A stretch of DNA of 64,000 nucleotides from positions 10,292-74,291 of the forward strand of contig CAIYPD010000076.1 in NCBI GenBank assembly GCA_903928075.1, read 5' to 3'. The DNA is from Candidatus Firestoneibacteriota bacterium. Lineage in GTDB: Bacteria > Oederibacteriota > D2-FULL-39-29. This document shows, piece by piece, positions 4,521 through 61,521 of the stretch; the stretch's first letter is position 1; each line of letters opens with the position of its first letter. The position numbers were made by a program, and so were the translations under genes. The notes below the pieces were generated by a model that was not told the origin of the DNA, made no database searches, and saw only the letters and a list, made by a program, of their open reading frames with translations.

Positions 4521-4579
4521 ATGTAGTTGCCTGATTTATCAGGCATTTTTAAAGCGCCCAATGAATTGGGCAACTACAT
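4521..4579 (-). promoter_or_regulatory. nested inverted-repeat element at the 3' end of the URO-D-like gene (outer 11-bp arms enclosing two 7-bp hairpins)
   Basis: Outer arms ATGTAGTTGCC (4521-4531) and GGCAACTACAT (4569-4579). Inner hairpins GCCTGAT-TT-ATCAGGC and GCCCAAT-GA-ATTGGGC. No U-tract follows, so it is not a canonical intrinsic terminator. Confidence 0.4.
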
Positions 4580-5692: not shown

Positions 5693-5711
5693 AATATATC
5701 CTTTTCCTCCG

Positions 5712-5800
5712 CTTCTCCGCCAAAAAGCGTTGGCGGATTTCGCAATGCTCAACTTCTCATTATTCATCTTGTTTTTCTTCTATCTATTGCTCCATTGCTC
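5712..5800 (-). repeat. conserved ~90-bp 5' leader, copy A (about 90% identical to copy B at 16942-17037), containing a CCGCCAA..TTGGCGG hairpin and a CAATAGATAGAAG motif
   Basis: By-eye alignment to 16942-17037. On the sense strand it carries ATGAATAATGAGAAGTTGAGCATTGCGAAATCCGCCAACGCTTTTTGGCGGAGAAGC. Confidence 0.7.
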
Positions 5801-6339
5801 TATTTTTCTATTTCATAAATAGCAGCCCTTGTCATCCGGCTTACCATCTCTTCTTTTCCGTTTATGTAAGCTTGAAGGTTATTTTTATATTTTGCTGCCA
5901 GCGTTTTTTTATAAAGGGAAAGTTTTTCAGCCACCTTAGGATGCGTCTCCAAATACTTTCTAAAAGCAAGATGGCGTTTTAACTCCCCGCTGTCGCTTTG
6001 ACAAACATACATGTGATGTTTAGGGAGGGTGTTTTTCCGGGTCTCATCCTTAAGGTCAAAGGCTTCTCTTCCGGGAATTCCAAGGTTTCCTTGATGAACA
6101 TATCCCAGAATGCTAAGTTTTTGAAGTATTTCAGGAAAACTGCCGGGCTTTATCACGATATCAATGTCAATTATGGGTTTTGCAGTCATTCCGCTTACAG
6201 AAGTACTGCCTATATGCTCTATTCTTAGAAAGGAATTCCCCAGCCCCTCCGCAAGGAAATCTTTTACAGACTCAAACCATTTTGCCCATTCCGGATTATA
6301 ATCCTCAACCAGCATCATTATCCTTTTTTTAATTATCAT
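5800..6339 (-). CDS. GrpB family protein (UPF0157, nucleotidyltransferase-fold)
   Basis: IEHIGSTSV motif. KPIIDIDIV. About 175 aa, typical GrpB length. Confidence 0.7.
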   Translation of the reverse strand: MIIKKRIMMLVEDYNPEWAKWFESVKDFLAEGLGNSFLRIEHIGSTSVSGMTAKPIIDIDIVIKPGSFPEILQKLSILGYVHQGNLGIPGREAFDLKDETRKNTLPKHHMYVCQSDSGELKRHLAFRKYLETHPKVAEKLSLYKKTLAAKYKNNLQAYINGKEEMVSRMTRAAIYEIEK

Positions 6340-12099: not shown

Positions 12100-14181
12100 T
12101 CATATTACAACTACGGCCGATTCTGCAGGCACAACTATCTTTCCGGAAGCATTTTTCCATTCCCCGCCGTCTACCAGCCTGTATTTTTTGAAGCTCTGAC
12201 CGTTATCCGCTTTTATTTTAAGTGAAACGGCTTTTTTATTATTGTAGTTGGCTATGGCCACTCCCAACTTTTTTGTTTTCCGGTTTATAAACGAAGTATA
12301 AGGGTGGTGCGCTTTGCCCTTGGCATCCTTGACCGAAACACCCACTGTATCCCTGAACTCGCCGTGCCAGAAATAATCCGCAAGCTCCGTCCGTAGAACA
12401 TCCATCTTCTTTGCATATTCTAGGGTGACAGGATAGTCATCAAGATGTCCTTTGAAGTTGTAAGGCTCATGGCTTATCACATATTTGTAGAGCAAGCACT
12501 GGTTAACCATATTCCGATCCTCAAAGCCCGTAATGGCGGTCATTATGTTGGCTGTCGGGAAAATATACCGTGATATGGGCGTATGTCCTCTTTCACCGGA
12601 TCTGAAATATGAATTCTCATATGTTTCAAATTCCCAGAAATATATAGCCTCACCCGCGTACAGGAAATCTTTATTTACTTTATCAGAAAGCTTTCTAAAG
12701 TTTTTAATGAGCTGCCTGTCATTCGCGTAAACCGGAGCGCCATACCTGTGGCCGTGGCTCATATCAAAGCAGGCCTGTGTACTGTGATGATGGAAACACT
12801 CATCAAAAAGTATCCCCGCCGCGCCAAGGTCCAATGTCTTTTGAAATTCTTTGTTACAGAGTTTCAGATATTCTTTATCCTGCAAACACATAGGAATAAG
12901 CCGTTTGGTATTGATATCCATCAACTGTGTCGCGGTCTGATATTGATAACCAGGATGATAATAATGATTCCCGTAGGGGTCTTTTATTGTGAGTTTTTTG
13001 TATTTCTTCACAAAGTCCTTGGTCCCCTGGTCCGCCCAGGTGAACTTCGCAAACAATATAACCTTTACTCCCATGGCGTGGATCTTTACGATGGCCTCTT
13101 TCAGTTCTTCAAAAGTCCCGAGCCTGGGGTCCGGGTCATGGGAAGGGTTGCCCTGGTCCTGTCCACCATCGTTCCAGCCGACAAGCTGAATTGCCGCAAT
13201 TCCGTGCCTGGCGCACTCTTCACCAACCTTCGGAAGGTCCTTGAACTTCATCCTGAGTTCATCCTCCGGAGAATTGATATGCAGCTGCAGCCAGGAATGA
13301 ACACCCTTAGCCCAGGAAGCTTTCTTTGATGTTTTAAGCCATTTACTCTGCCATTCTTTATAAATATCGGCGCCCACATGCCAGCCGCCCTTGTAAGCCT
13401 GAAGTACTATCGGTGTTAATTCTCTGGTCTCTCCCGGGTTTATGTAGGGAATATGTATCGCGCCGAAACGGGTATGAACATCCTTCCCCGCCATGGTAAG
13501 CGTTTCAGGAACTTTTTTTTCCATCTCACTGGACCAACCCGGCCTTAGCTCCGCGTGCCAGGCATGTGTATCACAGCTGTTGGTGGCCGGCCCCATGTAA
13601 AGCCCCTGGGTCGGAGTGCGAAGCAGTATAAAGACCTGGTAAGGGAAGTTACCGCATATCTGAATAGGGTAATCAACGCCAAAATACCCTTTTGTATTGA
13701 TAAATTCCGGCCAGAGACTCCAGTCATTTACGCTGGAATAGCCCGGAAAAGTAAATTTCGTCCACTCATCATTCTTCGGATGCTGAATATCCCCTATATA
13801 GGGGCAGTAGAAGTTCTCTACCATATATGAGGAGTCGTTCTTGATGGTTGAATAGTATATTGCCTGTTTGTCGGTGAGCTTTATCTTTATGGTGACCTTT
13901 ATTTTATGAAAACCTCCGAACTCCGAGGTAACGCCGTCCCAGACAAAGGTTATTTCCTTTTTATTCTTTGCGACCAGGCACGAAGTGACAGCCTGTTTTT
14001 CTCCAATCACATCATTATTTCTTTTTCCCGGGAGAGGCACCATCATCCTGAAAGAAAGTCCGAGTTGCGGCCTGTTAAGTAATTCCCACCCGGTCACTTT
14101 AGAAGTGAGGCGGGTAAGCGCGCCATTCACGGTATTAAACTCCATCTTCAAAGTCTTATTCTCAAGTGTTACTACCGGCAT
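12100..14181 (-). CDS. putative glycoside hydrolase (TIM-barrel, family unassigned), no signal peptide
   Basis: 693 aa. Central block GWNDGGQDQGNPSHDPDPRLGTFEELKEAIVKIHAMGVKVILF is typical of hydrolase-like (beta/alpha)8 barrels, with flanking beta-rich domains. SD AGGGGGAA upstream. Confidence 0.45.
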   Translation of the reverse strand: MPVVTLENKTLKMEFNTVNGALTRLTSKVTGWELLNRPQLGLSFRMMVPLPGKRNNDVIGEKQAVTSCLVAKNKKEITFVWDGVTSEFGGFHKIKVTIKIKLTDKQAIYYSTIKNDSSYMVENFYCPYIGDIQHPKNDEWTKFTFPGYSSVNDWSLWPEFINTKGYFGVDYPIQICGNFPYQVFILLRTPTQGLYMGPATNSCDTHAWHAELRPGWSSEMEKKVPETLTMAGKDVHTRFGAIHIPYINPGETRELTPIVLQAYKGGWHVGADIYKEWQSKWLKTSKKASWAKGVHSWLQLHINSPEDELRMKFKDLPKVGEECARHGIAAIQLVGWNDGGQDQGNPSHDPDPRLGTFEELKEAIVKIHAMGVKVILFAKFTWADQGTKDFVKKYKKLTIKDPYGNHYYHPGYQYQTATQLMDINTKRLIPMCLQDKEYLKLCNKEFQKTLDLGAAGILFDECFHHHSTQACFDMSHGHRYGAPVYANDRQLIKNFRKLSDKVNKDFLYAGEAIYFWEFETYENSYFRSGERGHTPISRYIFPTANIMTAITGFEDRNMVNQCLLYKYVISHEPYNFKGHLDDYPVTLEYAKKMDVLRTELADYFWHGEFRDTVGVSVKDAKGKAHHPYTSFINRKTKKLGVAIANYNNKKAVSLKIKADNGQSFKKYRLVDGGEWKNASGKIVVPAESAVVVI

Positions 14182-14249
14182 TTATTCCCCCTGTATACTT
14201 TTTTTTCTTATTTTGTGCTATTTCTCATTAGTCTTGTCATCTTGTCGTC

Positions 14250-15488
14250 TTACCCCTCCGTTATCTTCCTTACAATCCCCACCCACTTCTTCAATCTGGA
14301 AACATCGCCTTGAAGAGTCTCAACATCTTTTAATGTAATGTGCCAGTAACTTTCCTTGAAGGCGTCCTTTGCGTCAGTGATTATCCTTTTTATCCGGTCT
14401 TCATCCCAGGAGGTGCAGACCATATCGGTGGGATTGGGCCTGAAGGAACAGATGTAATCTTTTTTTATCTGTTCGGCGCATTTACGATAGTTAGCAACCG
14501 GCGTCACGGCAATGCTTCTCAAGTTCTTTACCTTCCGGAGCATATCTATTTTTTTTGTAAGATCCTCACAGCACCCGTAATGCGTCATCGCAAATTTTTC
14601 CATTATCGGCTGCTGGTACCGGAGCATAAATTCGTCATGAAACTCCGGCGAGACCAGCGTCAATTCCTGAGAGGCCATAAAGCCCCAGAGCTCTTTTCTC
14701 TTTGAGGGCGTATTGGGTTTGCGCCAGGGAAGCTCATTGCAATACGGCATTGCCTGGTTACCGCTCATGGTCAGCGTAAAATGCCCCGCCTCCTCCGCCT
14801 CCTGCTGATTCGTCAGTATCCCATCCCGCATAAAAGCCAGGAGTTGATGCAGTTCCTTCGGACTCTCGTACATATCCAGCATCATCTGCTCAAGCCCCCG
14901 GATATTAGCCAGGTCAGTGGAAATATCCCCCATAAAGCCAAGATACGCAGGGCCCCTTATTATATCTATCGGAATTATTTTACCTATCGCTTCGGCAAGT
15001 CTGTTATATTTTCTTTTTGTATCCTCTTCGTCTATCGCATGGTGCAGGGCTTTGATTTTTCCAATATCCTTCCAGTCTTTTATAATAGCATCAAGATGAA
15101 ATGCGCCGCCTTTCTGGGCAGACTTCGTCATCTGCCGTTCAACTCCCCAGTGATTATCCCAGGTCCCTTCCCGGGTTCCGGCAAGTTCTATCCAGGGCTC
15201 ATTTACGGCATCATGCCCGGTTTCTTCTGATAAAAGCCGAAATTTAAATGTCCGTTCGTAACCCCTGAAAAACTCATCTTCACACGCCATGTTTTTATCA
15301 GAAAACATCTCCTTACACCAGGCCTCCCAAAATCCGTTATTCAATAGGATGGGCGGCCGCGTTTTCTTTTTATTAAAATGGTCGCTCCAGAGCTTCCTTC
15401 TTTCTTCCTGAATAGGCTTAGTCGCAATTTCCATATATTGCCTGGCAAGGTCCTGTACTATTTTAATATCTTTTTGATTAGTAGGCAT
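14250..15488 (-). CDS. uncharacterised ~415-aa paralog family 'c' protein (copy 1 of 3), partner of the URO-D-like gene
   Basis: Shares with 50337-51608 and 57450-58706 an N-terminal P(V/I)Q(K/E)E...LW motif. Also shares a C-terminal YGCCE(D/P)L(T/D)KKI...R(K/S)I(A/S)V(T/S)P(V/W)A...DY(I/V).S and (H/P)(I/V)EFI(L/I)KD. SD AAGGAGA upstream. Confidence 0.6.
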   Translation of the reverse strand: MPTNQKDIKIVQDLARQYMEIATKPIQEERRKLWSDHFNKKKTRPPILLNNGFWEAWCKEMFSDKNMACEDEFFRGYERTFKFRLLSEETGHDAVNEPWIELAGTREGTWDNHWGVERQMTKSAQKGGAFHLDAIIKDWKDIGKIKALHHAIDEEDTKRKYNRLAEAIGKIIPIDIIRGPAYLGFMGDISTDLANIRGLEQMMLDMYESPKELHQLLAFMRDGILTNQQEAEEAGHFTLTMSGNQAMPYCNELPWRKPNTPSKRKELWGFMASQELTLVSPEFHDEFMLRYQQPIMEKFAMTHYGCCEDLTKKIDMLRKVKNLRSIAVTPVANYRKCAEQIKKDYICSFRPNPTDMVCTSWDEDRIKRIITDAKDAFKESYWHITLKDVETLQGDVSRLKKWVGIVRKITEG

Positions 15489-15852
15489 CTAATCTCCTTT
15501 GTATAGATAACAAGACCAAATGTACAGCAAACAGCTAACGGATGTACGGCTAATACCTTCTTTCTTTTGCTGTCTGCCTTGCATCCAATCCTCCGCTCTT
15601 CTATCTTTCACTTTGTACCTTGTCCTCCAAAGAACTTCTTTGGAGAGATCTCGCCTAATGGCGGATACTTCGTACTTTGTACTCTTGTTATCTTGTATTC
15701 TTCTCTACTCTTGCCAACCCTCTCCGCCAAGTTTGCTTGGCGAGATCTCGCTGTAAGCGGACAACCATCCACTTTTCCGTCCTCAGTCCTCCGGCTTCTG
15801 GCCTCATGTTTTCACTCTTGCCAAGCCTCTAACCATCCAAACATCCAATCCT
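15489..15852. repeat. repeat-rich 364-bp spacer with palindromic REP/MITE-like units
   Basis: Perfect 10-bp-arm palindrome CTCCAAAGAA-C-TTCTTTGGAG at 15626-15646. Two copies of (palindrome)-AGATCTCGC-(TAATGGCGGA / GTAAGCGGACAACC). Internal direct repeats CATCCAATCCTC at 15581 and 15841. Related unit at 41481-41580. Confidence 0.7.
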
Positions 15853-16923
15853 CTATCTATACTTGCCGTAGTTCTTTGCTGTTTCATACATCGCGAGCAC
15901 ATTTTCTGTCGGCGAATTATCCTGCAGAGCGTGAGTAGGCGCAAAACAATAACCGCCGCCCGGCATCATAATATCCAGCGTTTTTTCACAATATTTTACG
16001 GTATCTTCAACCTTACCAAAAGCCACAGGTCCGGCCGTACTTATACAGCCGTGGAAAGCAAGACGCCCGCCGAATTTTTTCTTTAAATACTCGGGGGACA
16101 TATTTGCCGCTTCCGGCTGGAGGGTATCCACCACATTTATGCCCATCTCAATAAAATCTTCATAAGCCCAACTACTGCTACCGCAGGTATGAATCATCAC
16201 AGGAAGCTTAAAACTTTTAGCCATGTCTATTATTTTTTGATGAAAAGGCCTGATTGCTCTTCTATATAGTTCCAGGCTTATCATCGGCGCAATCTGGGTC
16301 CCCAGGTCTTCCCCCATCCATAAAAAATCTACAGCGCCCTTAGCGGCTTCAATGGTCCGTCTGGTTATTTCGAGGTTAATATCGACCCTGCGCTTTGCCA
16401 GAAGCAGCCCCGCCGGTTCATCCGTCATAAGGTCAACTAAAACCTGTTCCATTCCCCGTACCATTCCGCTTGAATTAATAATGTCGCCGAGTCCGGCTCC
16501 GCCCACATATAGAGCATACTCTTTATTCTTTTTGCAATGTTCCTGTACCCCGGAAAAATCAAATTTGTCCGGATCCGGCATCGGCCAGTTAGCCACCTCT
16601 TCTTCCGTGGCATTCTGTAGCGGGAAATCACAAAAATCAAGGTAACCTCCGCTCTCATGTTCTATCCAGCGTGTATGCATACCCCAGTCGTTTACCTTCA
16701 CCCCTCTTTCAGGTATATCCTTATGAAGTTTTGGCCCAAGATATTTTGTCACTCCAACCCCGCGAAAATCCACGCCCAGCACATTTATGAGTTCATCTCC
16801 GTCTTTGACCTTAAAATGCTTTATAAGCCTCTCGTTTATGCCCGGATTGGCCGCGTAGTTTATCGGCACCCGGTCCGGTGTTCTATTCGCAAAAGTAGTG
16901 AGTACGCGTTCTTTAGAATTCAT
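15853..16923 (-). CDS. URO-D family protein, subfamily b (likely start at 16923, ORF track extends to 16953)
   Basis: MNSKERVLTTFANRTPDRVP family signature. HTCGSS (HxCG) segment. C-terminal MMPGGGYCFAPTHA. SD AAAAAGGAG 7 nt before the ATG. Confidence 0.8.
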   Translation of the reverse strand: MNSKERVLTTFANRTPDRVPINYAANPGINERLIKHFKVKDGDELINVLGVDFRGVGVTKYLGPKLHKDIPERGVKVNDWGMHTRWIEHESGGYLDFCDFPLQNATEEEVANWPMPDPDKFDFSGVQEHCKKNKEYALYVGGAGLGDIINSSGMVRGMEQVLVDLMTDEPAGLLLAKRRVDINLEITRRTIEAAKGAVDFLWMGEDLGTQIAPMISLELYRRAIRPFHQKIIDMAKSFKLPVMIHTCGSSSWAYEDFIEMGINVVDTLQPEAANMSPEYLKKKFGGRLAFHGCISTAGPVAFGKVEDTVKYCEKTLDIMMPGGGYCFAPTHALQDNSPTENVLAMYETAKNYGKYR

Positions 16924-16941
16924 TTTTCTCCTTTTTATCAG

Positions 16942-17037
16942 CTTCTCCGCCACAAAGTGTTGGCGGATTTCGCTATGCTCAACTTCTCATAATTCATCTT
17001 GTTTTTCTTCTATCTATTATCTATTGTTCCATTATTC
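16942..17037 (-). repeat. conserved 5' leader, copy B (paralog of 5712-5800)
   Basis: About 90% identity to copy A by eye. Sense strand encodes a 19-codon upstream ORF MNYEKLSIAKSANTLWRRS ending at a TGA just before the SD. Contains a CCGCCA..TGGCGG hairpin. Confidence 0.7.
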
Positions 17038-17289
17038 TACCCCGGGAGAAGGTATGGATGAGGGTAATGGTTTTCTAATCTCCATAAGAGTCGTAAAGGT
17101 CTATAAATGAAAACAATATATTTCAACGATTTTAGACCTTAAGAACCTTAAGAACCTTAAAAACTTTATAAACTTCTTTTTCCCTCTTTCCCCAATTGTA
17201 TCTATTTGGCCAGCCAATTGCAAGAATTTTACCTGACGGTTCACTTAAGAAATCCTGAATCAGGATAAACTTGATTTTAATAAAGCATA

Positions 17290-18813
17290 ATGTTATTATC
17301 CCTTATGATTAAGAACCCCAATGTCCTACTTATAACCACCGACCAGCAGAGATTTGATTCCATTGCCGCACTCGGAAACTCAAAGATAAAAACACCCAAC
17401 CTTGATAAACTTGTAAAAAACGGGGTGGCCTTCACGCGAGCTTATTCCTCATGTCCCGAATGCGTACCGGCAAGAATAACAATTAAAACCGGGATGCCGC
17501 CGTGGCGGAGCGGTTCTACTAACAACGGTGAGAAGATAAAACCAAACACCGATACCCTTATGTCAGTTTTAGCCAAAGGCGGCTACCACACCCAGGCCAT
17601 AGGCAAGATGCATTTTATTCCTACAAGAGCAAAATTCGGGTTCAAAGAGATGTGGCTTTCCGAGGAAGTACCGATAAAAGCAAGTGAGGATGAATTTTTA
17701 ACAGAACTTATAAAAAAAGGGTACGGCCACGCGGAAGAACCGCACGGAATGAGGAGCTTTCTATATTATGTACCGCAGGTCTCCCAGCTCCCCGAAAAAT
17801 TGCACACGACCGCCTGGACCGGAAGAAAGACCGTAGAATATTTAGCCCGGCGGAAGAAATCAAAGCAGCCGTTTTTTCTCTGGACTTCTTTTATCAAGCC
17901 GCATCCGCCCTTCGATCCGCCGGTGCCTTTTAACAGCATGTACAATCCGCTTGACATGGACCTTCCCATTCAAGAGAAAGACGCCGATAAAAATTACACC
18001 TTCTGGAATTACTGCCAGAACCGGTATAAATGGATGGAAAGTAACCGTAACGATGTCTTTAAACAGGCGCAAAAAGCTTTCTACTACGCCTGCATAAGTT
18101 TTGTCGACAAACAACTGGGCCTGATATTTGAGGCCTTGAAAAAGAACGGCCAGCTTAAAAATACGGTTATAGTTTTCACCGCCGACCATGGCGAATACCT
18201 CGGGGACCATTTCTGCTACGGCAAACGAGGCTTTCAGGATTCCGCGGCCAGGGTGCCTTTTATTATTTCCTACCCGGCCTATCTGCCTAAAAACAAAAGG
18301 GTTGAGGCGCCCGTCGGACACGCTGACATAATGCCGACTATCTTAAGCCTTTGTAATCTGGATTACAGAAAACCGCAGTACGGCTGGGATCTGACGCCTA
18401 AAATGAAAAATCCCTTTTCCAGCGCGAGGAAATATTTCTACGCCCAGTACAACAGAAAAGGTTATGCTATTTATATGTGCATGGATTCAAAATGGAAATA
18501 TATCTATGATGTGGCCGGAAAAAGAGAAATATTCTATAACTTTATAAAGGACCCGAAAGAAATAACAAATCTGGCCGGAAAGACTAAATACAGGAAAGAG
18601 AAATTAAGATTAAAGCAGGAACTAATAAAGCACTTTAAAGAACAGGGGAATTTTGAGGCAATAAAAGGAACTGAGTTCCGGTCCTACGCCAATAAGAACT
18701 TGAAACGCTATAAGAACCTGTCCGGCATAAATAATAATTCGAAAGACGGCCGGCTCTTCCAGTATGCGCTTTGGACCAATAGGAACAGTGACATGTGGAG
18801 CTCTTTAATGTAG
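17290..18813 (+). CDS. Cys-type sulfatase (arylsulfatase family), no signal peptide
   Basis: LLITTDQQRFD metal-binding N-terminus. Formylglycine motif C-V-P-A-R in SSCPECVPARITIKTG. 507 aa. Confidence 0.9.
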   Translation: MLLSLMIKNPNVLLITTDQQRFDSIAALGNSKIKTPNLDKLVKNGVAFTRAYSSCPECVPARITIKTGMPPWRSGSTNNGEKIKPNTDTLMSVLAKGGYHTQAIGKMHFIPTRAKFGFKEMWLSEEVPIKASEDEFLTELIKKGYGHAEEPHGMRSFLYYVPQVSQLPEKLHTTAWTGRKTVEYLARRKKSKQPFFLWTSFIKPHPPFDPPVPFNSMYNPLDMDLPIQEKDADKNYTFWNYCQNRYKWMESNRNDVFKQAQKAFYYACISFVDKQLGLIFEALKKNGQLKNTVIVFTADHGEYLGDHFCYGKRGFQDSAARVPFIISYPAYLPKNKRVEAPVGHADIMPTILSLCNLDYRKPQYGWDLTPKMKNPFSSARKYFYAQYNRKGYAIYMCMDSKWKYIYDVAGKREIFYNFIKDPKEITNLAGKTKYRKEKLRLKQELIKHFKEQGNFEAIKGTEFRSYANKNLKRYKNLSGINNNSKDGRLFQYALWTNRNSDMWSSLM

Positions 18814-32988: not shown

Positions 32989-33028
32989 GTCTGTAAAAGT
33001 CCGTAAAGGTCCATAATGTCTATAAAAG
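32989..33028 (+). repeat. tandem decamer array GTCYRTAAAG x4 (inverted partner of 33421-33500)
   Basis: GTCTGTAAAA GTCCGTAAAG GTCCATAAT GTCTATAAAAG read directly. Ends 7 bp before the stop of the four-helix-bundle gene. Confidence 0.8.
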
Positions 33029-33034
33029 ACCTTT

Positions 33035-33403
33035 CTATTCCTTGTGCTCTCTAAGGTATTTAATTAAATTGCTTATCATACTGCTTGTCTTTTCACATTT
33101 AGAGCGCGTGTTTTTATACAAAGTTTCGTTAACATAACTCTGATCAAGAGCAATATCCATTTGTGCTCTAAGCTCCCCGCAGGAACCTTTTGCTATAAAA
33201 AGGAACTGAGCAAACTCTTTATCTCCTTTTCTCTCAAATCCTTCCGCAATATTAGACATGATTGACACAGCGGACTTTCTAATTTGATTGATAAGGTAAA
33301 AATCATTTTGAAAACCCGATGATTTTGTAATCCCATAAATATCGTGTGTCAACTCCCGAGCTTGCTTGTAAATATTCAAATCCTCAAATCTCTTTGCTTT
33401 CAT
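33035..33403 (-). CDS. four-helix-bundle protein (23S rRNA IVS protein / Avd-like family)
   Basis: 122 aa. DLNIYKQARELTHDIY...FQNDFYLINQIRKSAVSIMSNIAEG...AKGSCGELRAQMDIA matches the TIGR02436/PF05635 pattern. Confidence 0.7.
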   Translation of the reverse strand: MKAKRFEDLNIYKQARELTHDIYGITKSSGFQNDFYLINQIRKSAVSIMSNIAEGFERKGDKEFAQFLFIAKGSCGELRAQMDIALDQSYVNETLYKNTRSKCEKTSSMISNLIKYLREHKE

Positions 33404-33420: not shown

Positions 33421-33500
33421 TGTAGACTTTCCCCTTTACAAACCTTTACAGACCTTTACGGACTTTTACAGACCTTTGTAGACCTTTACGGACCTGTATT
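33421..33500 (-). repeat. tandem decamer array (CTTTACAGAC-like) x7
   Basis: CTTTACAAAC CTTTACAGAC CTTTACGGAC TTTTACAGAC CTTTGTAGAC CTTTACGGAC read directly. Begins 18 bp upstream of the four-helix-bundle start. Confidence 0.8.
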
Positions 33501-37375: not shown

Positions 37376-37405
37376 TTTCTTTCCCTCCTATAGGAAATAC
37401 GATTT

Positions 37406-37434
37406 CACAGATTAATAAAAGAGATTCCACAGAT
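37406..37434 (-). promoter_or_regulatory. paired CACAGAT direct repeats (22-bp spacing) upstream of the lipoprotein gene
   Basis: GATTTCACAGAT ... AAAGAGATTCCACAGAT. Same architecture as at 39228-39255 and 41396-41425. Confidence 0.5.
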
Positions 37435-37470
37435 ATAACCCGGGATCTCTAAGCTTCACTATAGTATAAC

Positions 37471-37520
37471 CTTTACAGACCTTTACAGACCTTTACGAAC
37501 ATTTGCAGACTTTTATAGAC
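37471..37520 (-). repeat. tandem decamer array x5 (CTTTACAGAC family)
   Basis: CTTTACAGAC CTTTACAGAC CTTTACGAAC ATTTGCAGAC TTTTATAGAC. Confidence 0.8.
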
Positions 37521-39178: not shown

Positions 39179-39227
39179 TATCTAACAGACTGGGAGGAAA
39201 ATCAAGGCTGAAATTCCAGCCTGATGA

Positions 39228-39255
39228 CACAGATGGGCAAAGAGATTACACAGAT
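39228..39255 (-). promoter_or_regulatory. paired CACAGAT direct repeats (21-bp spacing) upstream of the K+ channel gene
   Basis: GATGACACAGATGG ... AAAGAGATTACACAGATG. Confidence 0.5.
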
Positions 39256-39303
39256 GTTGCCTTGTGATTGTTTAAAATTTCTAGTTTAATGCTTCGAGTT
39301 TTG

Positions 39304-41286: not shown

Positions 41287-41395
41287 CTATTTTCCTCTGT
41301 TTATCGGCTCACAGGTTAATCCTATATTACATTAAACCTATTTGTAATTCAAGCTTTCTCAGAAAAGCTGATGGCATTGATAGGCAAAGAGATGG

Positions 41396-41425
41396 CACAG
41401 ATGGTTGTTGCCTGATTTCACAGAT
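41396..41425 (-). promoter_or_regulatory. paired CACAGAT direct repeats (23-bp spacing) upstream of the CPA2 antiporter gene
   Basis: AAAGAGATGGCACAGATGG ... GATTTCACAGATTTT. Confidence 0.5.
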
Positions 41426-41480
41426 TTTCAAAAAGATATCGCAGATAAAGCATTAAAACAATATTTCAGTATTTTTGTAG

Positions 41481-41580
41481 CTGCTAAGCATCTCCGCCAA
41501 ATTTGCTTGGCAAGATATCGTCCACCTTTGGTGAGATCTCGTCCGCCTAATGGCAGGACGGACCGTAGGCGGACAACCCC
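41481..41580. repeat. REP/MITE-like palindromic unit related to those at 15626-15770
   Basis: CTCCGCCAAATTTGCTTGGCAAGATATCG ... GAGATCTCGTCCGCCTAATGGCAGGACGGACCGTAGGCGGACAACCCC. Shares CTCC-(hairpin)-AGATCTCGC-TAATGGCGGA/GCGGACAACC with the 15.6-kb spacer. Confidence 0.6.
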
Positions 41581-47623: not shown

Positions 47624-47647
47624 AAATTTCTATCAAAGTCCTTAAAA

Positions 47648-47656
47648 GTCTGTAAG
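47648..47656 (+). repeat. single inverted copy of the decamer (GTCTGTAAG), about 110 bp left of the 47768 array
   Basis: Read directly. Together with the array it brackets a 110-bp AT-rich segment. Confidence 0.5.
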
Positions 47657-47699
47657 CAGAATTTTTTCGATATGAAATACATCGTATAGACAACATCCG

Positions 47700-47767: not shown

Positions 47768-47808
47768 CCTTTTAAAGACCATTACAGACCTTTAATGACT
47801 TTTACGGA
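47768..47808 (-). repeat. tandem decamer array x4 (CTTTACAGAC family)
   Basis: CTTTTAAAGAC CATTACAGAC CTTTAATGAC TTTTACGGAC. Confidence 0.75.
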
Positions 47809-47818
47809 CTTTTTTTAC

Positions 47819-50088: not shown

Positions 50089-50336
50089 TATTTTCGCCTC
50101 TTTAACCGGAGTTACAAGGCCGACTAAACTTAACAAGTTGATTATATAGCCTACAAGCTAAAAGTCAAGAAGAGAAGCGCCCTAATAAGACGGTTATAAG
50201 GTTGGATGTTTGGAGGCTTGGCGAGAGCAAAAAACAGAAAAAAGTTTGTTGCATACACTTTTTTGTGATCATAAAGCATTCGGCAGTATTTTGTCCTCTG
50301 ACTGCTGTCCATTTTTCCAAACAACCAAACCCCTGT

Positions 50337-51695: not shown

Positions 51696-52732
51696 TTATT
51701 TATTATAGGTTCCAAACTCCCTTATAGTCTCGCACATCGCAAGAACATTTTCTATGGGGGTCGCCTCCAGAACAGTATCATGACTGGCCCCCGCCACATA
51801 CCCGCCGCCCGGCATCATTATTTTCAGTATTTCTTTTGTCCTCTCCCTTACTACCTCAGGGGTGCTTTCCATCAGTATATGGTGGGAATCTATACCGCCG
51901 TTGAAGACTATTTTTTTCCCGTAATTATTTTTCAGTTCAACAAGGTTCATCCCGACACAGGTCGTCTGTACGGCATGTAAAGCATCCAGGCCGACACTAA
52001 TCAAATCTGGAATCAAAGGCTCAATACCTCCACAGCAATGAAGCTGGACTTTAAGTTTATAGGCGTGTCCTAGATCTATAAGTTTCTTAAAGTGAGGAAG
52101 CAAAAATCGCCGGAATTGTTCCGGGCTTAAAAGCGGGCCGTTCTGACTCCCCAAGTCGTTCCCCATGAAAAAAATATCAATATATTTTCCGGCCGTATCA
52201 AATGTTTTTTTATTTACTTCAAAATAGAAAGAGGAAAGATGTTCGAACACCGCGTCCACAATCTCAGGTTCGTCGTACATCTTTAGGCAGAGGTTTTCCA
52301 TTCCAAAAAGATCAATGGCTTCATGCCAGAACGGAGACCAGAACCCGCCCATAATCGCATATTTCCCTTTGTGTTTTTCCGCCTGCGCTTTTATCCCCGA
52401 GGCGTCAAACCATTTCGGATCCGGCCAGGCATAAGCATGCACCTCTTTTAATGTTGCATTTGCGAGCGGATGATTAAGCGGTTGACCGCAGCCCACTCCC
52501 GCGCGTTTGATTCCGAGCCTATTAACGCCGTCTTTTAAGTCCGGGCCAATATCAGAAGCATGAACGGCCCTGAAATCATCTTCAAGCATCTGCTTTAGTC
52601 CTTCATCATCAAGGGAGAGCTTCTTTTGCATCCCTTCCCACATCTCGCGGGAAGCCCCAAACCAAAGCGGTACCCGATCCGGCTCCTCATGCGCAAAAGC
52701 AGTTAATACCCGTTCCCTCGAAGTCATCACCA
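51696..52732 (-). CDS. URO-D family protein, subfamily b (start at 52732, ORF track extends to 52805)
   Basis: MTSRERVLTAFAHEEPDRVP. LHCCGG. MMPGGGYVAGASHD. SD GGAGGAAATATTATG. Confidence 0.8.
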
Positions 52733-52915
52733 TAATATTTCCTCCAAAATAGATAGATAACAAGCTAACAAGACGACAAGATAACAAAGTTAAAGCAAAT
52801 AGCAAATTACTGAATTTCTTTATTGTTTTTGTACTCTTATTTTCTTGTATTCTTTTATATTTTATTTTATTTATTAGCCAATTAGAAATTAGTAATCAGA
52901 AATTCGAGACGGCGT

Positions 52916-54217
52916 TTATTGAACGCCGTCGACCCACACATGTCCCGCCCCGAGCCTCTGGCTTGGCTTAGACTCACATTCCAGAGCAATGACCGTCATA
53001 TCCTTATCCGGCGGGTTCACAGGCAGGTCGTAAAGATGGAGCCGTTCCGTCGGCTTGAAGGTCTGTTTAAACTTAACCTTTTCGCCGGTACTGACTATCC
53101 GGGCACTGCGTACCTTCATCTGCAGACCGCCTAACCAGAGTTCTTTACCGTACCAGCGGGTAATATGCCAGTACATAGTATTCCCCTTGGCGGTTGCCGA
53201 GGTCCCGTGCGGATTGAAGTTCATCCATTCGGTATTAACTCTCTCGGTTCCGTAAATAGATTCTCCGTTATTGTTGCGTTTAAGCCAGTCTCCCATTCCG
53301 CGAAGACTGGAAATTGCTTCTTCTTCAATAGAGCCGTCGCCGCGAGGGCCGACATTTAATATAAAATTACCTCCGTTTCCGGCGCAGGAGACAAGTTTTC
53401 CCAGAAGATTAGGAACGCTCTTCCATTCCTTGTCGGCCTTATTCCAGCCCCAGGAGCCGTTCAAGGTATCACAACTTTCCCAGTCCCGGTAATCCGCGCT
53501 TGCCCTGGTTGAGTTTTCGGGTGTGTCAAAATCCTCCGGCATCAAAGAACCCTCTACACCCCAGCCCGACCTGTTATTTATAAGTATCTGCGGTTGAAGC
53601 GACCTGACCATATAATTTAATTTTGTTGAGTCCCAGCCATTGGGTTTAAGCGGCCACGGTACATCGTAAAAGAGATAGTCTATCTTTCCATAATTCGTCA
53701 TAATTTCACGGACCAGGCCGTGAGTGTAATCAACGAATCTTTTGCGGGCTTTTAAGTCATGCAGGCAGTTGGCGCCGTCAGGATGATGCCAATCCATCAA
53801 ACTATAATAAAGCCCGACATGCAGGCCTTCGGCGCGGACCGCCTCGACAAACTCGGCCACAATGTCCCGGCGCGCCGGAGAATTTACGGAAGTATATTTT
53901 GTAAGTTTGGAATCAAAAAGACAAAAACCTTCATGGTGCTTGGTGGTTAGGGCAACATATTTCTGGCCCGACTCTTTTGCCAGTCTGGCCCAGGCTTTGG
54001 GGTCAAATTTTTCGGCTGTGAATTTTTTAGCCAGTGCTTCATACTCTTTAACAGGAATCCGCTCCCGGTTCATCACCCACTCATGCCGGCCAAGAATACT
54101 ATAAAGGCCCCAGTGGATAAACATACCGAACTTGGCCTCTCTAAACCAGGCCATCCTCTCACTCAGTGAAGGGATTCCGCCTTTTGAAAGCTGAACCTGC
54201 TTACTCGTTTTTTTCAT
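52916..54217 (-). CDS. alpha-L-fucosidase (GH29), no signal peptide
   Basis: WFREAKFGMFIHWGLYSI ... YVALTTKHHEGFCLFDS ... YYSLMDWHHPD, the GH29 hallmarks. SD AAGGAGAGAG. Confidence 0.9.
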   Translation of the reverse strand: MKKTSKQVQLSKGGIPSLSERMAWFREAKFGMFIHWGLYSILGRHEWVMNRERIPVKEYEALAKKFTAEKFDPKAWARLAKESGQKYVALTTKHHEGFCLFDSKLTKYTSVNSPARRDIVAEFVEAVRAEGLHVGLYYSLMDWHHPDGANCLHDLKARKRFVDYTHGLVREIMTNYGKIDYLFYDVPWPLKPNGWDSTKLNYMVRSLQPQILINNRSGWGVEGSLMPEDFDTPENSTRASADYRDWESCDTLNGSWGWNKADKEWKSVPNLLGKLVSCAGNGGNFILNVGPRGDGSIEEEAISSLRGMGDWLKRNNNGESIYGTERVNTEWMNFNPHGTSATAKGNTMYWHITRWYGKELWLGGLQMKVRSARIVSTGEKVKFKQTFKPTERLHLYDLPVNPPDKDMTVIALECESKPSQRLGAGHVWVDGVQ

Positions 54218-54262
54218 TGCTCTCTCCTTTTTTTATATTTCATCATCTATTATCTATTGCTC

Positions 54263-55291
54263 TTATGGCGGAGTTATCTTTCCGTCTAAATCCCACAGGT
54301 CTTCCCAGGTTTGCCCCTCTTTCCAAAGAAAAACCTGACCTTTTATCAGTCGGCAATTTTTATCTATATCCGCTATTTCTTTCATCTCCTCATTAGTAAG
54401 CGGAGCGGAAAGCACTGCTTTTAGATTACTCAAATATTTAGAACGGTTCACGGAAAAAGGTATCACGACCTCCCCCCGCTGAACACCCCATTTAACACAA
54501 ACCACCGCAGGATGGACTTTAAGCCTTTCTGCAATTTTCACAATGACGGGGTCTTCAATATCTACTGTGTCCGCAGGGGTTTTATCCCGTTCGGGACGCT
54601 TGGGCGAGCCGATAGGACTGTAACCTATAGGAATTATCCCCGCTTTCACAACAAAATCATAAAGCTCCGCCTGCTGTAAATGAGGATGTAATTCCATTTC
54701 CCCGCAGGACGGTTTTATCTTAGCATCTCGAAGTAGAAGTTTCAGTTTCGGAATGGTCATATTAGATGTTCCGATATTTTTTACCAATCCCCGCTCTACC
54801 AGTTTTTCGAGCTGCCTCCAGGTCTTCATATAGTTTTCATGGATGTAAGCTTTTGCATTTTTATCGCGCGAGGAAACGCTTACGCCTTTAGCATGGCTGT
54901 TGGGGAAAGGCCAGTGTATAAGATAAAGATCAAGATAGTCCAGCTGCAAATCTTTAAGCGACTTCTCACAAGAAGGCCCTACATCTTTTTCGGCGTGTTT
55001 ATCATTCCATAACTTTGAAGTGATCCACAACTCTTCGCGCTTGACCCCGCTCTTTATCGCCTCTCTCAAGACCGGGCCTATTAAATGTTCATTGCCGTAA
55101 ATAGACGCACAGTCAATATGTCGGTACCCCAGGGCTATTGCATCTTTTACCGCGGCCGCGACCTCTTCTCCCGGGTAACAATCTGACCCAAAAGTTCCCA
55201 GCCCTACTACCGGTATTTTTGCGCCTGTACGCAGCGTCTTACTTGGAACCTGTTTTGGGTCAACTGCTTCTTTACTCAAATTTAAACTCAC
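54263..55291 (-). CDS. aldo/keto reductase
   Basis: IPVVGLGTFG ... GYRHIDCASIYGNE ... AKR catalytic tetrad context. 342 aa. Confidence 0.85.
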   Translation of the reverse strand: MSLNLSKEAVDPKQVPSKTLRTGAKIPVVGLGTFGSDCYPGEEVAAAVKDAIALGYRHIDCASIYGNEHLIGPVLREAIKSGVKREELWITSKLWNDKHAEKDVGPSCEKSLKDLQLDYLDLYLIHWPFPNSHAKGVSVSSRDKNAKAYIHENYMKTWRQLEKLVERGLVKNIGTSNMTIPKLKLLLRDAKIKPSCGEMELHPHLQQAELYDFVVKAGIIPIGYSPIGSPKRPERDKTPADTVDIEDPVIVKIAERLKVHPAVVCVKWGVQRGEVVIPFSVNRSKYLSNLKAVLSAPLTNEEMKEIADIDKNCRLIKGQVFLWKEGQTWEDLWDLDGKITPP

Positions 55292-56365: not shown

Positions 56366-56448
56366 ATAAGAACCATCCTTTAGTTAGAGCGATTTTCTTT
56401 TGCCGTACTTCCATTCATCCGACCTTCCGCCCCTCTGTCCTTGCTCCT

Positions 56449-60284: not shown

Positions 60285-60363
60285 ATTTACTCCTCTTTTC
60301 GCAATATTTTTTTATTATCTATTTTTCAATTTTGTGGTTATTTGAAATTTGCAGTAATATTCT

Positions 60364-61365: not shown

Positions 61366-61521
61366 TCTTCCTTTACTTTAACGAATATTTAAGCAAGAAG
61401 TATTGTAATCTATACAACGCATATTTTCAAGTTTAATCTAAATTTTACCCCCATTGTATATCTATTCAAAAAAATAAACGGCTTTCAGGCTTGATTTCAT
61501 TGAAAAAACGGGAAACTGGGC

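What the first reader, a model, noticed from the sequence alone, without database searches (positions are those of the whole stretch)
52733..52915. Shared GATAACAAG / AAGACGACAAGAT(A/G)ACAA and CAATAGATAATAGAT motifs in leaders of glycan-island genes
TTGTTATCTAT sits immediately upstream of the SD of both the family-c gene (15489-15520) and the URO-D-b gene (52733-52760). AAGACGACAAGAT(A/G)ACAA occurs at 52763-52780 and, inverted, at 14215-14235 upstream of the GH-like gene. TTGTACTCTT(A/G)TT(A/T)TCTTGTATTCTT recurs at 15676 and 52828. CAATAGATAATAGAT precedes the fucosidase SD (54240) and both URO-D-b leaders. These are candidate operator sites of one regulator co-controlling both islands. 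No regulator gene is in the window.
Basis: seen in the sequence. Interest (0 to 1): 0.5.

Follow-up and report, generated by a model that had tools for sequence, protein, structure and literature searches.

The report
Short tandem-repeat modules in gene leaders
The shared motifs are real, but they are pieces of short 7- and 8-base tandem-repeat arrays that fill the spaces between genes in this uncultured Firestonebacteria-like bacterium and turn over quickly between related species, so they look more like the little-understood intergenic repeat arrays of cyanobacteria than like binding sites of one sugar-gene regulator.

Summary
The motifs exist, a few bases off the stated coordinates. The longer ones (18-mer, 26-mer, 15-mer) exceed chance. 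The 11-mer alone does not.

All are parts of short-period tandem arrays. One has an 8-nt unit (AAGAnnAC, complement GTnnTCTT) at 14234-51, 15677-702, 52756-87 and 52829-58. The other has a 7-nt unit (ATAGATA).

In this window they occur only in leaders of URO-D, family-c and fucosidase genes. ATAGATA is in 7 of 11 such leaders and 0 of 25 other intergenic regions (about 7e-4 by label permutation).

Several results argue against one operator:
- The periods are 7 and 8 nt, with no dyad, in both orientations and at varied distances from the start codon.
- Both array types are absent from orthologous leaders of one of two species about 85% identical in protein. The second keeps only the array next to the ribosome-binding site.
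- The same 24-26-nt array sits between pepP and efp in a contig that shares this window's repeat families.
- They are two of at least six repeat-module families in these intergenic regions.

In paired cases a purine arm lies 5' and a complementary pyrimidine arm ends just before the ribosome-binding site. This predicts only a weak hairpin.

Best reading: lineage-specific repeat modules like cyanobacterial STRR (short tandemly repeated repetitive sequences), possibly acting at RNA level. Interest is modest.

The parts
52756..52787 (-). Pyrimidine arm of the 8-nt array. The sense RNA reads UUGUUAUC UUGUCGUC UUGUUAGC UUGUUAUC (4 units).
   Evidence: Sequence. Tandem Repeats Finder gives period 8, 4.1 copies. 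The 18-mer search. About 84% conserved, together with the ribosome-binding site, in relative L144.
52749..52759 (-). TATCTATCTAT: two overlapping copies of the 7-mer TATCTAT (complement ATAGATA), between the array and the ribosome-binding site.
52731..52746 (-). Ribosome-binding site GGAGGA (52740-52746) and start codon (52731-52733) of URO-D-family gene 51696-52733. GGAGGAAATATTATG is the only leader stretch conserved in all three related species.
52829..52858 (-). Purine arm of the 8-nt array. The sense RNA reads AAGAAUAC AAGAAAAU AAGAGUAC AA. It pairs with 52756-52787 in the minimum-energy fold.
52880..52904 (-). A separate 7-nt array (CTAATTn / CTGATTA) at the 5' end of the same spacer. 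The same words recur in L144 and L044.
52908..52930 (-). Hairpin with a 9-bp stem, GACGGCGTT-(5 nt)-AACGCCGTC, spanning the fucosidase stop codon. No T-run follows, and the scan did not call it a terminator.
15677..15702 (-). Purine arm of the 8-nt array in the 364-nt spacer upstream of family-c gene 14250-15488. The sense strand reads AAGAATAC AAGATAAC AAGAGTAC AA.
   Evidence: A 21-nt stretch of it (GAAGAATACAAGATAACAAGA) recurs in L144, and L044 has copies with 2-3 mismatches.
15503..15513 (-). TTGTTATCTAT, 3 nt 5' of the ribosome-binding site of family-c gene 14250-15488. It is one pyrimidine unit plus TATCTAT. UCUUGUUAUCU is complementary to AGAUAACAAGA in the purine arm at 15677-15702.
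   Evidence: Partly conserved in the sister-species ortholog as GCTTATCTGTAAAGGAG.
14234..14251 (-). Purine 8-nt array AAGACGAC AAGATGAC AA. It overlaps the stop codon of family-c gene 14250-15488 and lies upstream of the DUF6259 gene 12100-14181. It has no partner arm, and the region is essentially unstructured.
54245..54259 (-). CAATAGATAATAGAT (about 2 copies of the 7-nt unit ATAGATA) in the 45-nt spacer between the aldo-keto reductase and fucosidase genes.
17012..17026 (-). CAATAGATAATAGAT in the leader of URO-D gene 15853-16923. It is the 5' end of a 90-nt module shared with the leader of URO-D gene 4574.
5775..5789 (-). CAATAGATAGAAGAA, a one-unit variant of the ATAGATA array, in the leader of URO-D gene 4574-5692.
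60315..60322 (-). AAATAGATAAT copy in the leader of the 498-aa gene. Further ATAGATA copies are at 61459-61465, 17199-17205 and, at the 3' ends of upstream genes, near 58791 and 54367.

Best explanation
The motifs are fragments of two families of short tandem-repeat modules. One has an 8-nt unit (AAGAnnAC, complement GTnnTCTT). The other has a 7-nt unit (ATAGATA). They belong to a larger set of at least six families of short-period (7-11 nt) arrays and small palindromes that make up much of the intergenic DNA of this Firestonebacteria-like genome.

Shown:
- The arrays lie only in intergenic DNA.
- They are shared between leaders as copied tracts of 15-90 nt.
- They differ between species about 85% identical in protein.
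- They sit at points where gene order differs between those species.
- They do not vary among nine assemblies of the same species.

Inferred origin: the arrays grow by slippage and spread between nearby or paralogous leaders by recombination or gene conversion.

Inferred action: where they occur in pairs, the transcript carries an A/G-rich arm 5' and a complementary U/C-rich arm that ends within about 50 nt 5' of the ribosome-binding site (a few nt in the two window leaders). The two arms can form a weak stem of about 6-bp helices interrupted by 2-nt internal loops. I take this to be a general stem-loop in the spacer or leader that affects spacing, stability, processing or translational coupling, as has been proposed for the 7-bp STRR hairpins of cyanobacteria. 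I do not take it to be a sequence-specific operator.
For: Tandem structure and position:
- Tandem Repeats Finder and pattern counts place every ACAAG-N3-ACAAG pair in three intergenic regions and none in coding sequence.

A genome-wide mosaic:
- Besides the two island families, four other families link non-island spacers in the same way: a 10-nt CCTTTACAGA array, GGATGG words, ATCTGTG words and a GAGATCTCGCC..GGCGG palindrome.
- Shared 13-mers link 9 region pairs against 1.2 expected. Shared 15-mers link 4 against 0.1.

Copied tracts:
- 27 nt at 93% identity links 15676-15702 with 52828-52854.
- 90 nt at 92% links 5699-5788 with 16929-17018.
- 15 of 15 nt link 17012-26 with 54245-59.
- The adjoining paralogs are only 22-38% identical in protein, so recent gene duplication does not explain the sharing.

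Turnover between species:
- The orthologous URO-D leader in L004, L010 and L011 is 82 nt and carries a different word family (GTCTAAGGTC / GTCTGTAAAG). Only GGAGGAAATATTATG is kept.
- At window 15489-15852 and 14182-14249 the sister species has two extra genes each.
- ATAGATA is not enriched in the intergenic DNA of the relatives.

Not specific to glycan genes:
- L044 has TAGAATACAAGAAAACAAGAGTACAA paired with its inverse between a Xaa-Pro peptidase gene and efp, and a second pair next to a GH31 gene.

Pairing:
- The arms pair in the minimum-energy fold in all six paired modules. The order is always purine arm, pyrimidine arm, ribosome-binding site.
- L144 keeps the pyrimidine arm and ribosome-binding site at about 84% identity, although its upstream gene is different.

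No strain variation: nine assemblies are identical.

Precedent: STRR sequences are usually 7 bp, can form hairpins between hupS and hupL, have no known function, and have been proposed to affect transcript stability or translational coupling (PMC2670836).
Against: - Within the window, both island families are confined to leaders of URO-D-type clusters more than label permutation allows. A purely general element should not be so confined. Spatial clustering of copied modules could produce this, and one window cannot separate the two.
- A specific 24-26-nt order of units (AAT, ATA/AAA, AGT) is kept at non-orthologous places in three or four related genomes. That suggests either sequence-specific selection or mobility.
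- The predicted hairpins are weak. Their z-scores are -0.6 to -2.4, and any purine-rich arm pairs fairly well with any pyrimidine-rich arm.
- The 14.2-kb array has no partner arm.
- Across 86 arrays from metagenomes, only 10 have an inverted partner within 200 nt, and orientation relative to genes is unbiased.
- No transcript data are available.
Confidence: 0.5

Rival explanations
1. The arrays are cooperative binding sites (operators) for one sequence-specific DNA-binding regulator of the URO-D and glycan clusters. The most plausible type would be a small ribbon-helix-helix protein. Such proteins bind contiguous 7-8-bp units in either orientation, as MetJ does on 8-bp metboxes (from my own knowledge) and the omega/ParB protein of pSM19035 does on 7-bp heptads.
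For: - ATAGATA and ACAAGAT are confined to island leaders: 7 of 11 against 0 of 25, and 5 of 11 against 0 of 25 (permutation about 7e-4).
- The units are contiguous, 7-8 bp, with 1-4 copies in mixed orientation. This matches the arrangement tolerated by the ribbon-helix-helix ParB of pSM19035 (PMC9499535).
- A specific 24-26-nt order of units is kept across related genomes.
- The array next to the ribosome-binding site is conserved between the window and L144.
Against: - No candidate regulator is encoded in or beside the islands.
- The motifs are absent from orthologous leaders of a species 85% identical in protein, and ATAGATA is not enriched in any relative.
- The same array lies between pepP and efp in L044.
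- Positions range from -15 to -280 and include a 45-nt spacer between two genes. No promoter-like site was found in 52600-53000.
- The shared tracts extend well beyond any core motif.
- The enrichment test treats regions as independent, but several sites are copies of each other and are neighbours.
Confidence: 0.2
2. The arrays are a dedicated RNA-level control element. The pyrimidine arm next to the ribosome-binding site pairs either with the purine arm of its own leader or, in trans, with the purine array of another leader. For example, 14234-14251 and 52770-52787 give an 18-bp duplex with one G-U pair. Alternatively an RNA-binding protein recognises the periodic ACAAGA words. Either way translation of the island genes would be coordinated.
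For: - The order purine arm, pyrimidine arm, ribosome-binding site holds in 6 of 6 paired modules in three genomes.
- The pyrimidine arm travels with the URO-D gene when the upstream gene differs.
- One site lies in a spacer too short for a promoter.
- The 18-mer occurs in opposite orientation in two leaders.
Against: - Fold energies are barely better than shuffles (z from -0.6 to -2.4).
- The ribosome-binding site itself is not consistently sequestered.
- The complementarity follows automatically from one repeat family lying in two orientations.
- No Rfam family matches.
- The sister species manages without it.
- Metagenome arrays show no strand bias relative to genes.
Confidence: 0.15
3. The shared motifs are chance matches in AT-rich, low-complexity leaders.
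For: - Intergenic GC is 37%, against 44% in coding sequence.
- Exact 11-mer sharing between intergenic regions is expected for about 14 region pairs.
- CAATAGATAATAGAT with up to 3 mismatches is near its expected count: 7 matches against 2.85 expected.
Against: - The 18-mer and the 26-mer have 0 matches in shuffles.
- Shared 13- and 15-mers are 8-40 times above expectation.
- Every phased ACAAG pair lies in three intergenic regions.
- Near-identical arrays occur in related genomes.
Confidence: 0.03

Closest known systems
STRR (short tandemly repeated repetitive) sequences of filamentous cyanobacteria
   Same: Both are short (7-8 nt) tandem units in intergenic DNA, present in several families per genome and dispersed. 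Both can form hairpins between adjacent genes of one operon, and the function of both is unknown. For STRR, proposed roles are transcript stability or translational coupling (PMC2670836).
   Different: The phylum is different (Firestonebacteria-like). The main unit is 8 nt rather than 7. The arrays are short and degenerate (2-4 units, 72-77% matches). The arms are purine- and pyrimidine-rich with a fixed order relative to the ribosome-binding site. In this window the two families are confined to URO-D-type clusters. There is no sequence relationship to STRR1-3 as I recall them; this was not tested.
Arrays of 7-8-bp units bound by ribbon-helix-helix proteins (MetJ metboxes; omega/ParB heptads of pSM19035)
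   Same: Both consist of contiguous 7- or 8-bp units in variable copy number. Direct and inverted orientations are both tolerated (PMC9499535). The MetJ 8-bp metbox comparison rests on my own knowledge.
   Different: No cognate protein has been identified. Metboxes are palindromic, and these units are not. Positions are not tied to promoters. The arrays are not conserved at orthologous genes. For pSM19035, four or more contiguous repeats are needed for full activity, whereas several sites here have only 1-2 units.
REP/BIME-type extragenic palindromes and MITEs
   Same: Both are dispersed, intergenic, often lie between genes of an operon, can form hairpins and differ between close relatives.
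   Different: The arrays are tandem words, not a fixed palindrome. The loops between arms are unrelated. No terminal repeats with target duplications are evident, and no RayT-like gene is seen. A separate palindromic element in this window (15712-15750 and 41482-41520) is the more REP-like one.
Phase-variable simple-sequence contingency loci
   Same: Both are short tandem repeats close to promoters or ribosome-binding sites.
   Different: The units are degenerate rather than perfect, and nine assemblies of the species show no change in copy number.

Membership tests
Transcription-factor operator or regulon motif | The motif recurs upstream of the co-regulated genes and not elsewhere. | tested here: met
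   ATAGATA is in 7 of 11 island leaders and 0 of 25 others. ACAAGAT is in 5 of 11 and 0 of 25. Label permutation gives about 7e-4. This covers one window only, and the sites are partly copies of each other.
Transcription-factor operator or regulon motif | The motif is conserved upstream of orthologous genes in related genomes. | tested here: not met
   It is absent from the orthologous URO-D, family-c and DUF6259 leaders of L004, L010 and L133. ATAGATA is not enriched in any relative. Only the arm next to the ribosome-binding site is kept, and only in L144.
Transcription-factor operator or regulon motif | Dyad symmetry, or direct repeats in helical phase, at a fixed place relative to the promoter. 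| tested here: not met
   The periods are 7 and 8 nt with no dyad. Both orientations occur, from -15 to -280 of the start. No promoter-like site was found in 52600-53000.
Transcription-factor operator or regulon motif | A cognate regulator is encoded nearby. | tested here: not met
   Pfam scans of about 50 window proteins found no dedicated regulator beside the islands. ORFs under 100 aa were not scanned.
Array operators bound by ribbon-helix-helix proteins (MetJ or omega type) | Contiguous 7-8-bp units, with mixed orientation allowed. | tested here: met
   compared with PMC9499535.
Array operators bound by ribbon-helix-helix proteins (MetJ or omega type) | A ribbon-helix-helix protein binds the array. 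| not testable with these tools
   This needs a binding assay. No such gene was seen among ORFs of 100 aa or more, and small ORFs were not scanned.
STRR-like short tandem intergenic repeats | Tandem units of about 7 nt confined to intergenic DNA. | tested here: met
STRR-like short tandem intergenic repeats | Several dispersed copies and several unit families per genome. | tested here: met
   There are four 8-nt arrays and about 10 intergenic ATAGATA sites, plus at least four other module families.
STRR-like short tandem intergenic repeats | Able to form hairpins between adjacent genes. | tested here: inconclusive
   The arms pair in the minimum-energy fold in 6 of 6 paired modules, but z-scores are only -0.6 to -2.4.
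STRR-like short tandem intergenic repeats | Belongs to the cyanobacterial STRR1-3 sequence families. | not tested
   The phylum and unit differ. The comparison is by analogy, not homology.
MITE or REP mobile element | A conserved element body with terminal inverted repeats and target-site duplication, or a fixed palindrome. | tested here: not met
   The sequence between the arms is unrelated among copies. No target duplications were noted.
Phase-variable repeat locus | Copy-number differences among strains. | tested here: not met
   There are 0 differences in the 182-, 364- and 68-nt spacers across 3 and 6 other assemblies.
Known structured RNA (Rfam) | A match to a covariance model. | tested here: not met
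   There was no hit at the gathering score in the window. There was none at E <= 1 in 14100-17400 or 52650-54350. One chance-level snoRNA hit (E = 0.42) fell in 5600-5900.

The most novel reading that the evidence does not exclude
The arrays could be a lineage-specific regulatory code. Under this reading, periodic 8-nt (AAGAnnAC) and 7-nt (ATAGATA) words would be read by an unidentified array-binding protein or by leader-to-leader RNA pairing. One example of such pairing is the 18-bp complementarity between the DUF6259 leader at 14234-51 and the URO-D leader at 52770-87. This would coordinate the URO-D-type and glycan-degradation clusters. The same logic might then explain the CTTGTnnT arrays seen next to ribosome-binding sites in many unrelated metagenome contigs.
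Probability: 0.15. Interest if true: 0.65.

Novelty: new member of a known kind. Interest (0 to 1): 0.35.

Why it matters
If these are general repeat modules, the practical lesson is a warning. In genomes whose spacers are mosaics of short arrays, shared words upstream of related genes do not identify a regulon. Orthologous leaders have to be checked before a regulator is inferred.

The phenomenon itself is under-described: intergenic DNA built from several families of 7-11-nt arrays, often as purine and pyrimidine arm pairs ending at the ribosome-binding site, with rapid turnover between species. It extends the unexplained STRR problem of cyanobacteria to a candidate phylum and apparently beyond.

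If the minority reading is right and the arrays are read by a factor, they would give a handle on how the poorly understood URO-D-family and family-c gene clusters, which sit next to fucosidase and sulfatase genes, are controlled.

Tried and rejected
- Recent gene duplication as the source of the shared DNA. Rejected: the paralogs are 22-38% identical in protein, while the shared tracts are 88-100% identical.
- Known RNA families. Rfam gave nothing useful.
- Promoter or terminator assignment. The scan found no sigma-70-like site and no terminator in 52600-53000. By eye, TTGGCT-16-TATAAA is weak.
- Strain-level copy-number variation, as in phase variation. None was found in nine assemblies.
- MITE. 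The sequences between the arms are unrelated.
- Pseudogene remnants in the 364-nt spacer. tblastn with the sister species' extra genes (hexapeptide-repeat protein, protease, 260-aa protein) found no trace in the window.
- Metagenome scan for TTGTNNTC x3. The set is heterogeneous. My crude ORF calling put 56 of 122 arrays in 'coding' sequence, there was no strand bias (18 against 26), and only 10 of 86 had an inverted partner. No control pattern could be scanned, so I cannot say whether the CTTGT word is over-represented.
- Fur-box, lac-operator half-site, DnaA-box and Hfq/Crc A-rich-motif resemblances. I considered these from memory. None fits the 7- or 8-nt periodicity, and I did not pursue them.
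- The genome-contig scan did not contain this species. The best match was 85% identical, so genome-wide enrichment could not be tested.

Full report
**Context.** The window is a block of genes, almost all on the minus strand, with about 43% GC. The closest species-representative genome is a Candidatus Firestonebacteria metagenome-assembled genome. Its URO-D-family protein is 85% identical to the one encoded at 51696-52733.

The finding concerns the 182-nt spacer 52734-52915. It lies between an alpha-L-fucosidase gene (52916-54217) and a URO-D-family gene (51696-52733). The other spacers involved are:
- 15489-15852, between URO-D gene 15853 and family-c gene 14250-15488;
- 14182-14249, between the family-c gene and a DUF6259 gene;
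- 54218-54262, between an aldo-keto reductase gene and the fucosidase gene;
- 16924-17289, upstream of URO-D gene 15853.

**Are the motifs there, and do they exceed chance?** All four motifs exist, with coordinates off by 1-19 nt.
- The 18-mer and the 26-mer had no matches in 100 dinucleotide-preserving shuffles.
- The exact 15-mer pair is one of 4 shared 15-mers between intergenic regions, against 0.1 expected.
- The 11-mer TTGTTATCTAT is weak evidence on its own. Shuffled intergenic regions share an exact 11-mer in about 14 region pairs, against 34 observed. What is notable is that both copies sit 3-7 nt from a ribosome-binding site.
- The statement that CAATAGATAATAGAT precedes both URO-D-b leaders is only partly true. 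There is one exact copy at 17012-26. A 12/15 variant lies at 5775-89. The 52.75-kb leader has only the inverted TATCTATCTAT.

**What the motifs are.**
- Tandem Repeats Finder places every motif inside a short tandem array. Period-8 arrays are at 14232-51, 15677-702, 52755-87 and 52829-58. A period-7 array is at 17011-25.
- Read on the sense strand, the 8-nt unit is AAGAnnAC in the purine orientation and GTnnTCTT in the pyrimidine orientation.
- All four ACAAG-N3-ACAAG pairs in the 64 kb lie in these three spacers. None lies in coding sequence.
- The 52.8-kb spacer is a chain of arrays. In order it contains a hairpin over the stop codon, a 7-nt CTAATTn array, an AT-rich tract, three purine 8-mers, a 41-nt centre, four pyrimidine 8-mers, TATCTATCTAT, and the ribosome-binding site.

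**The wider picture in the window.** Listing all spacers, finding repeats and comparing all spacers with each other show at least four further module families:
- a 10-nt array (CCTTTACAGA) at 17.1, 33.0, 33.4, 37.5 and 47.7 kb;
- GGATGG/GGTTGG words at 2.4, 15.8, 50.2 and 56.4 kb;
- ATCTGTG words at 37.4, 39.2 and 41.4 kb;
- a palindromic element at 15.7 and 41.5 kb.

Island and non-island spacers share some of these. The 15489 spacer shares modules with the 41287 and 50137 spacers. The 16924 spacer shares one with the 37376 spacer. Neighbouring spacers tend to share the same family.

The island leaders share tracts far longer than a binding site would need: 27 nt at 93%, 90 nt at 92% and 15 of 15 nt. 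The adjoining paralogous proteins are only 22-38% identical. This is the signature of copied modules.

**Is there an association with the glycan and URO-D genes?** Yes, within this window.
- I ran an unbiased test of presence per region over all canonical 7-mers. The top k-mer was ATAGATA, present in 7 of 11 leaders of URO-D, family-c, fucosidase, DUF6259 and neighbouring genes and in 0 of 25 other spacers (Fisher 4e-5).
- ACAAGAT was present in 5 of 11 and 0 of 25.
- Only 2 of 3000 random relabellings gave any k-mer as skewed.

It has three caveats. Several sites are copies of one another. Island leaders are neighbours, and modules spread locally, which the permutation ignores. It is a single window.

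**Comparison with relatives.** Three lineages are mutually about 85% identical in this URO-D protein.
- In the first (L004, L010, L011, L133), the orthologous fucosidase-to-URO-D spacer is 82 nt. It carries the 10-nt word family instead, and only GGAGGAAATATTATG is conserved.
- In the same lineage, the family-c and DUF6259 leaders lack 8-nt arrays. The family-c leader keeps only TTATCTGT next to its ribosome-binding site. At window 15489-15852 and 14182-14249 this species has two extra genes each, so the window's arrays lie at insertion/deletion junctions.
- In the second lineage (L144), the URO-D gene follows a sulfatase gene instead of a fucosidase gene. It still keeps the pyrimidine arm and ribosome-binding site at about 84% identity over about 45 nt. 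So that arm travels with the gene.
- L144 also has a long purine array, a centre and a pyrimidine array upstream of a fucosidase gene. That purine array contains GAAGAATACAAGATAACAAGA, which is identical to window 15.69 kb.
- ATAGATA is not enriched in the intergenic DNA of L010, L133 or L144.
- Contig L044, found by the metagenome scan, has 42% GC and the same word families. It carries TAGAATACAAGAAAACAAGAGTACAA (24 of 26 matches to window 52829-54) paired with its inverse between a Xaa-Pro peptidase gene and efp. A second pair lies next to a GH31 gene. So the array family is not tied to URO-D or glycan genes in that relative.
- Nine assemblies of the window's own species are identical in all three spacers. 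This rules out copy-number variation of the phase-variation kind.

**How it might work.**
- In the six cases where both orientations occur in one spacer (window 52.8 and 15.6 kb; L144, two cases; L044, two cases), the order on the sense strand is always purine arm, pyrimidine arm, ribosome-binding site. The arms pair in the minimum-energy fold as helices of about 6 bp separated by 2-nt internal loops.
- The energies are only modestly better than shuffles (z = -2.4, -4.0 for the whole 381 nt with its other hairpins, -1.35, -1.9, -0.6 and -2.3).
- A purine-rich arm pairs with almost any pyrimidine-rich arm, so this is weak support. The ribosome-binding site is not consistently sequestered.
- The 14.2-kb array has no partner and is essentially unstructured.
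- No promoter-like or terminator-like site was found in 52600-53000. The spacer is therefore probably transcribed through from the fucosidase gene. This is an inference.
- The closest described parallel is the cyanobacterial STRR. These are usually 7-bp repeats and can form hairpins, for example between hupS and hupL. Their function is unknown, and proposed roles are transcript stability or translational coupling (PMC2670836).
- For a DNA-level reading, the best precedent is array binding by ribbon-helix-helix proteins. The ParB/omega protein of pSM19035 needs four or more contiguous 7-bp heptads and tolerates mixed orientation (PMC9499535). MetJ on 8-bp metboxes is a similar case, from my own knowledge. 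No such protein was identified here.

**Verdict.** Its best description is a set of lineage-specific, copied, short-period repeat modules like STRR, not operators of one regulator.

I give about 0.5 to general repeat modules with at most a general RNA-level role. I give 0.2 to a sequence-specific DNA-binding regulator, 0.15 to a dedicated RNA-level control element, and very little to chance. The whole-genome distribution in this species would be decisive, and I could not obtain it because the species is not among the representative genomes.

- Many hits are perfect arrays of 4-13 copies.
- Some lie directly 5' of a ribosome-binding site (L028, L050, L067, L097).
- Some have a perfect inverted partner (L016, L079, L096, L104).
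- Overall there is no strand bias relative to genes, and only 10 of 86 arrays have a partner.
- No control pattern was scanned. This shows only that arrays of this kind are widespread. It does not show that the word is special.

Noticed in passing
window 5699-5788 and 16929-17018 (minus-strand sense); L135:11300-11413: Two URO-D-family genes that are only about 23% identical in protein share a leader of 90-110 nt at 92% identity. It contains CAATAGATA(ATAGATA)GAAGAAAAACAAGATG, a possible short upstream ORF, and a hairpin CCGCCAAC-N-TTGGCGG just before the ribosome-binding site. The true starts are ATG 5692 and ATG 16923, not the ORF-list starts 5767 and 16953. A related copy (GCGAAATCTGCCGACGCTTTGTGGCG) in Firestonebacteria GWA2_43_8 lies in a convergent spacer and is followed by a terminator-like hairpin (GCCCTCTG..CAGAGGGC) and a run of T. 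It may be a cis-regulatory leader or a small RNA. Rfam has no match.
   Followed up: partly
window 32989-33016 and 33433-33495, flanking gene 33035-33403; also L018 and L081: A gene for a '23S rRNA intervening sequence protein' (PF05635) is flanked by inverted 10-nt arrays (GTCTGTAAAG) whose arms are 93% complementary. In L081, a metagenome contig picked up only for its 8-nt arrays, a homolog of this gene is likewise flanked by inverted arrays; in L018 a homolog lies next to an array at the contig end. This suggests a gene cassette bracketed by a long stem.
   Followed up: partly
window 17136-17175, 37469-37520, 47624-47660 and 47769-47813; L133:6700-6840; L010:14503-14638: The 10-nt array family (CCTTTACAGA / GTCTGTAAAGG) often occurs as an inverted pair around an AT-rich centre containing GAAATATATTG. 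Unlike the 8-nt arrays, it is kept at orthologous positions in the sister species, namely the sulfatase/URO-D divergent spacer and the LemA-Mfd spacer.
   Followed up: partly
window 15712-15750, 41482-41520 and 15640-15665: A REP-like palindromic element (TCTCCGCCAAnnnnnnTTGGCGAGATCTCG) is present in two spacers 26 kb apart at 85% identity, with a related half-copy nearby.
   Followed up: no
window 15809-15854 against 50188-50233; also 2044-2080 and 56366-56420: A GGATGG/GGTTGG word family (for example GGATTGGATGTTTGGATGGTTAGAGGCTTGGCAAGAG) occurs in both orientations in four spacers. The longest pair is 46 nt and 76% complementary. The repeated GGA words recall CsrA-type binding sites, but this was not tested.
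   Followed up: no
window 37401-37434, 39221-39256 and 41368-41447: An ATCTGTG(A/C)AATC word family is shared by three neighbouring spacers around the K+ channel, Na+/H+ exchanger and FecR genes.
   Followed up: no
L138:1100-2229 (same species, JGI sample 3300022555): One strain carries an IS3-type transposase pair (HTH_Tnp_1 plus rve) between the sulfatase gene and URO-D gene 15853. The window has only the 336-nt spacer 16954-17289 at that place.
   Followed up: no
window 14182-14249 and 15489-15852, against L133:11237-14184 and L133:7931-10000: The sister species has a tandem second URO-D copy plus a hexapeptide-repeat gene, and a trypsin/PDZ protease plus a 260-aa gene, exactly where the window has only array-filled spacers. 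tblastn found no remnants of these genes in the window.
   Followed up: yes
window 802-869: An 11-nt tandem repeat (GTTTCTTGTGC, 4.5 copies) lies inside the coding sequence of the AlbA_2/winged-helix protein gene 622-2043.
   Followed up: no
L012:20126-20265 and L146:3752-3893 (other, high-GC organisms): Spacers in unrelated high-GC contigs also consist of inverted pairs of short word arrays. Examples are GGTTCAGAGGTTGAGAGG ... GAACCTCTTCAACC between the etfB and etfA genes, and CAGGATTAACAGGATTTGCAGGATT ... AATCCTGAAAATCCTGGTAATCCTG. The arm-pair architecture is therefore not confined to Firestonebacteria.
   Followed up: no
L024, L062, L079, L084, L087, L096 and L104 (metagenome contigs, mostly high-GC): Near-perfect hairpins are built from GATGACAA arrays facing TTGTCATC arrays. 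They recur in several, mostly high-GC, contigs.
   Followed up: no
L015, L105, L112 and L130: AAGATAAC arrays of 4-7 or more copies abut the same conserved sequence, ATATTATGG(G/A)TGGATTACATATTCATAACTGGGCTACTGGC, in four contigs. This looks like an iteron-type arrangement of some replicon or element.
   Followed up: no
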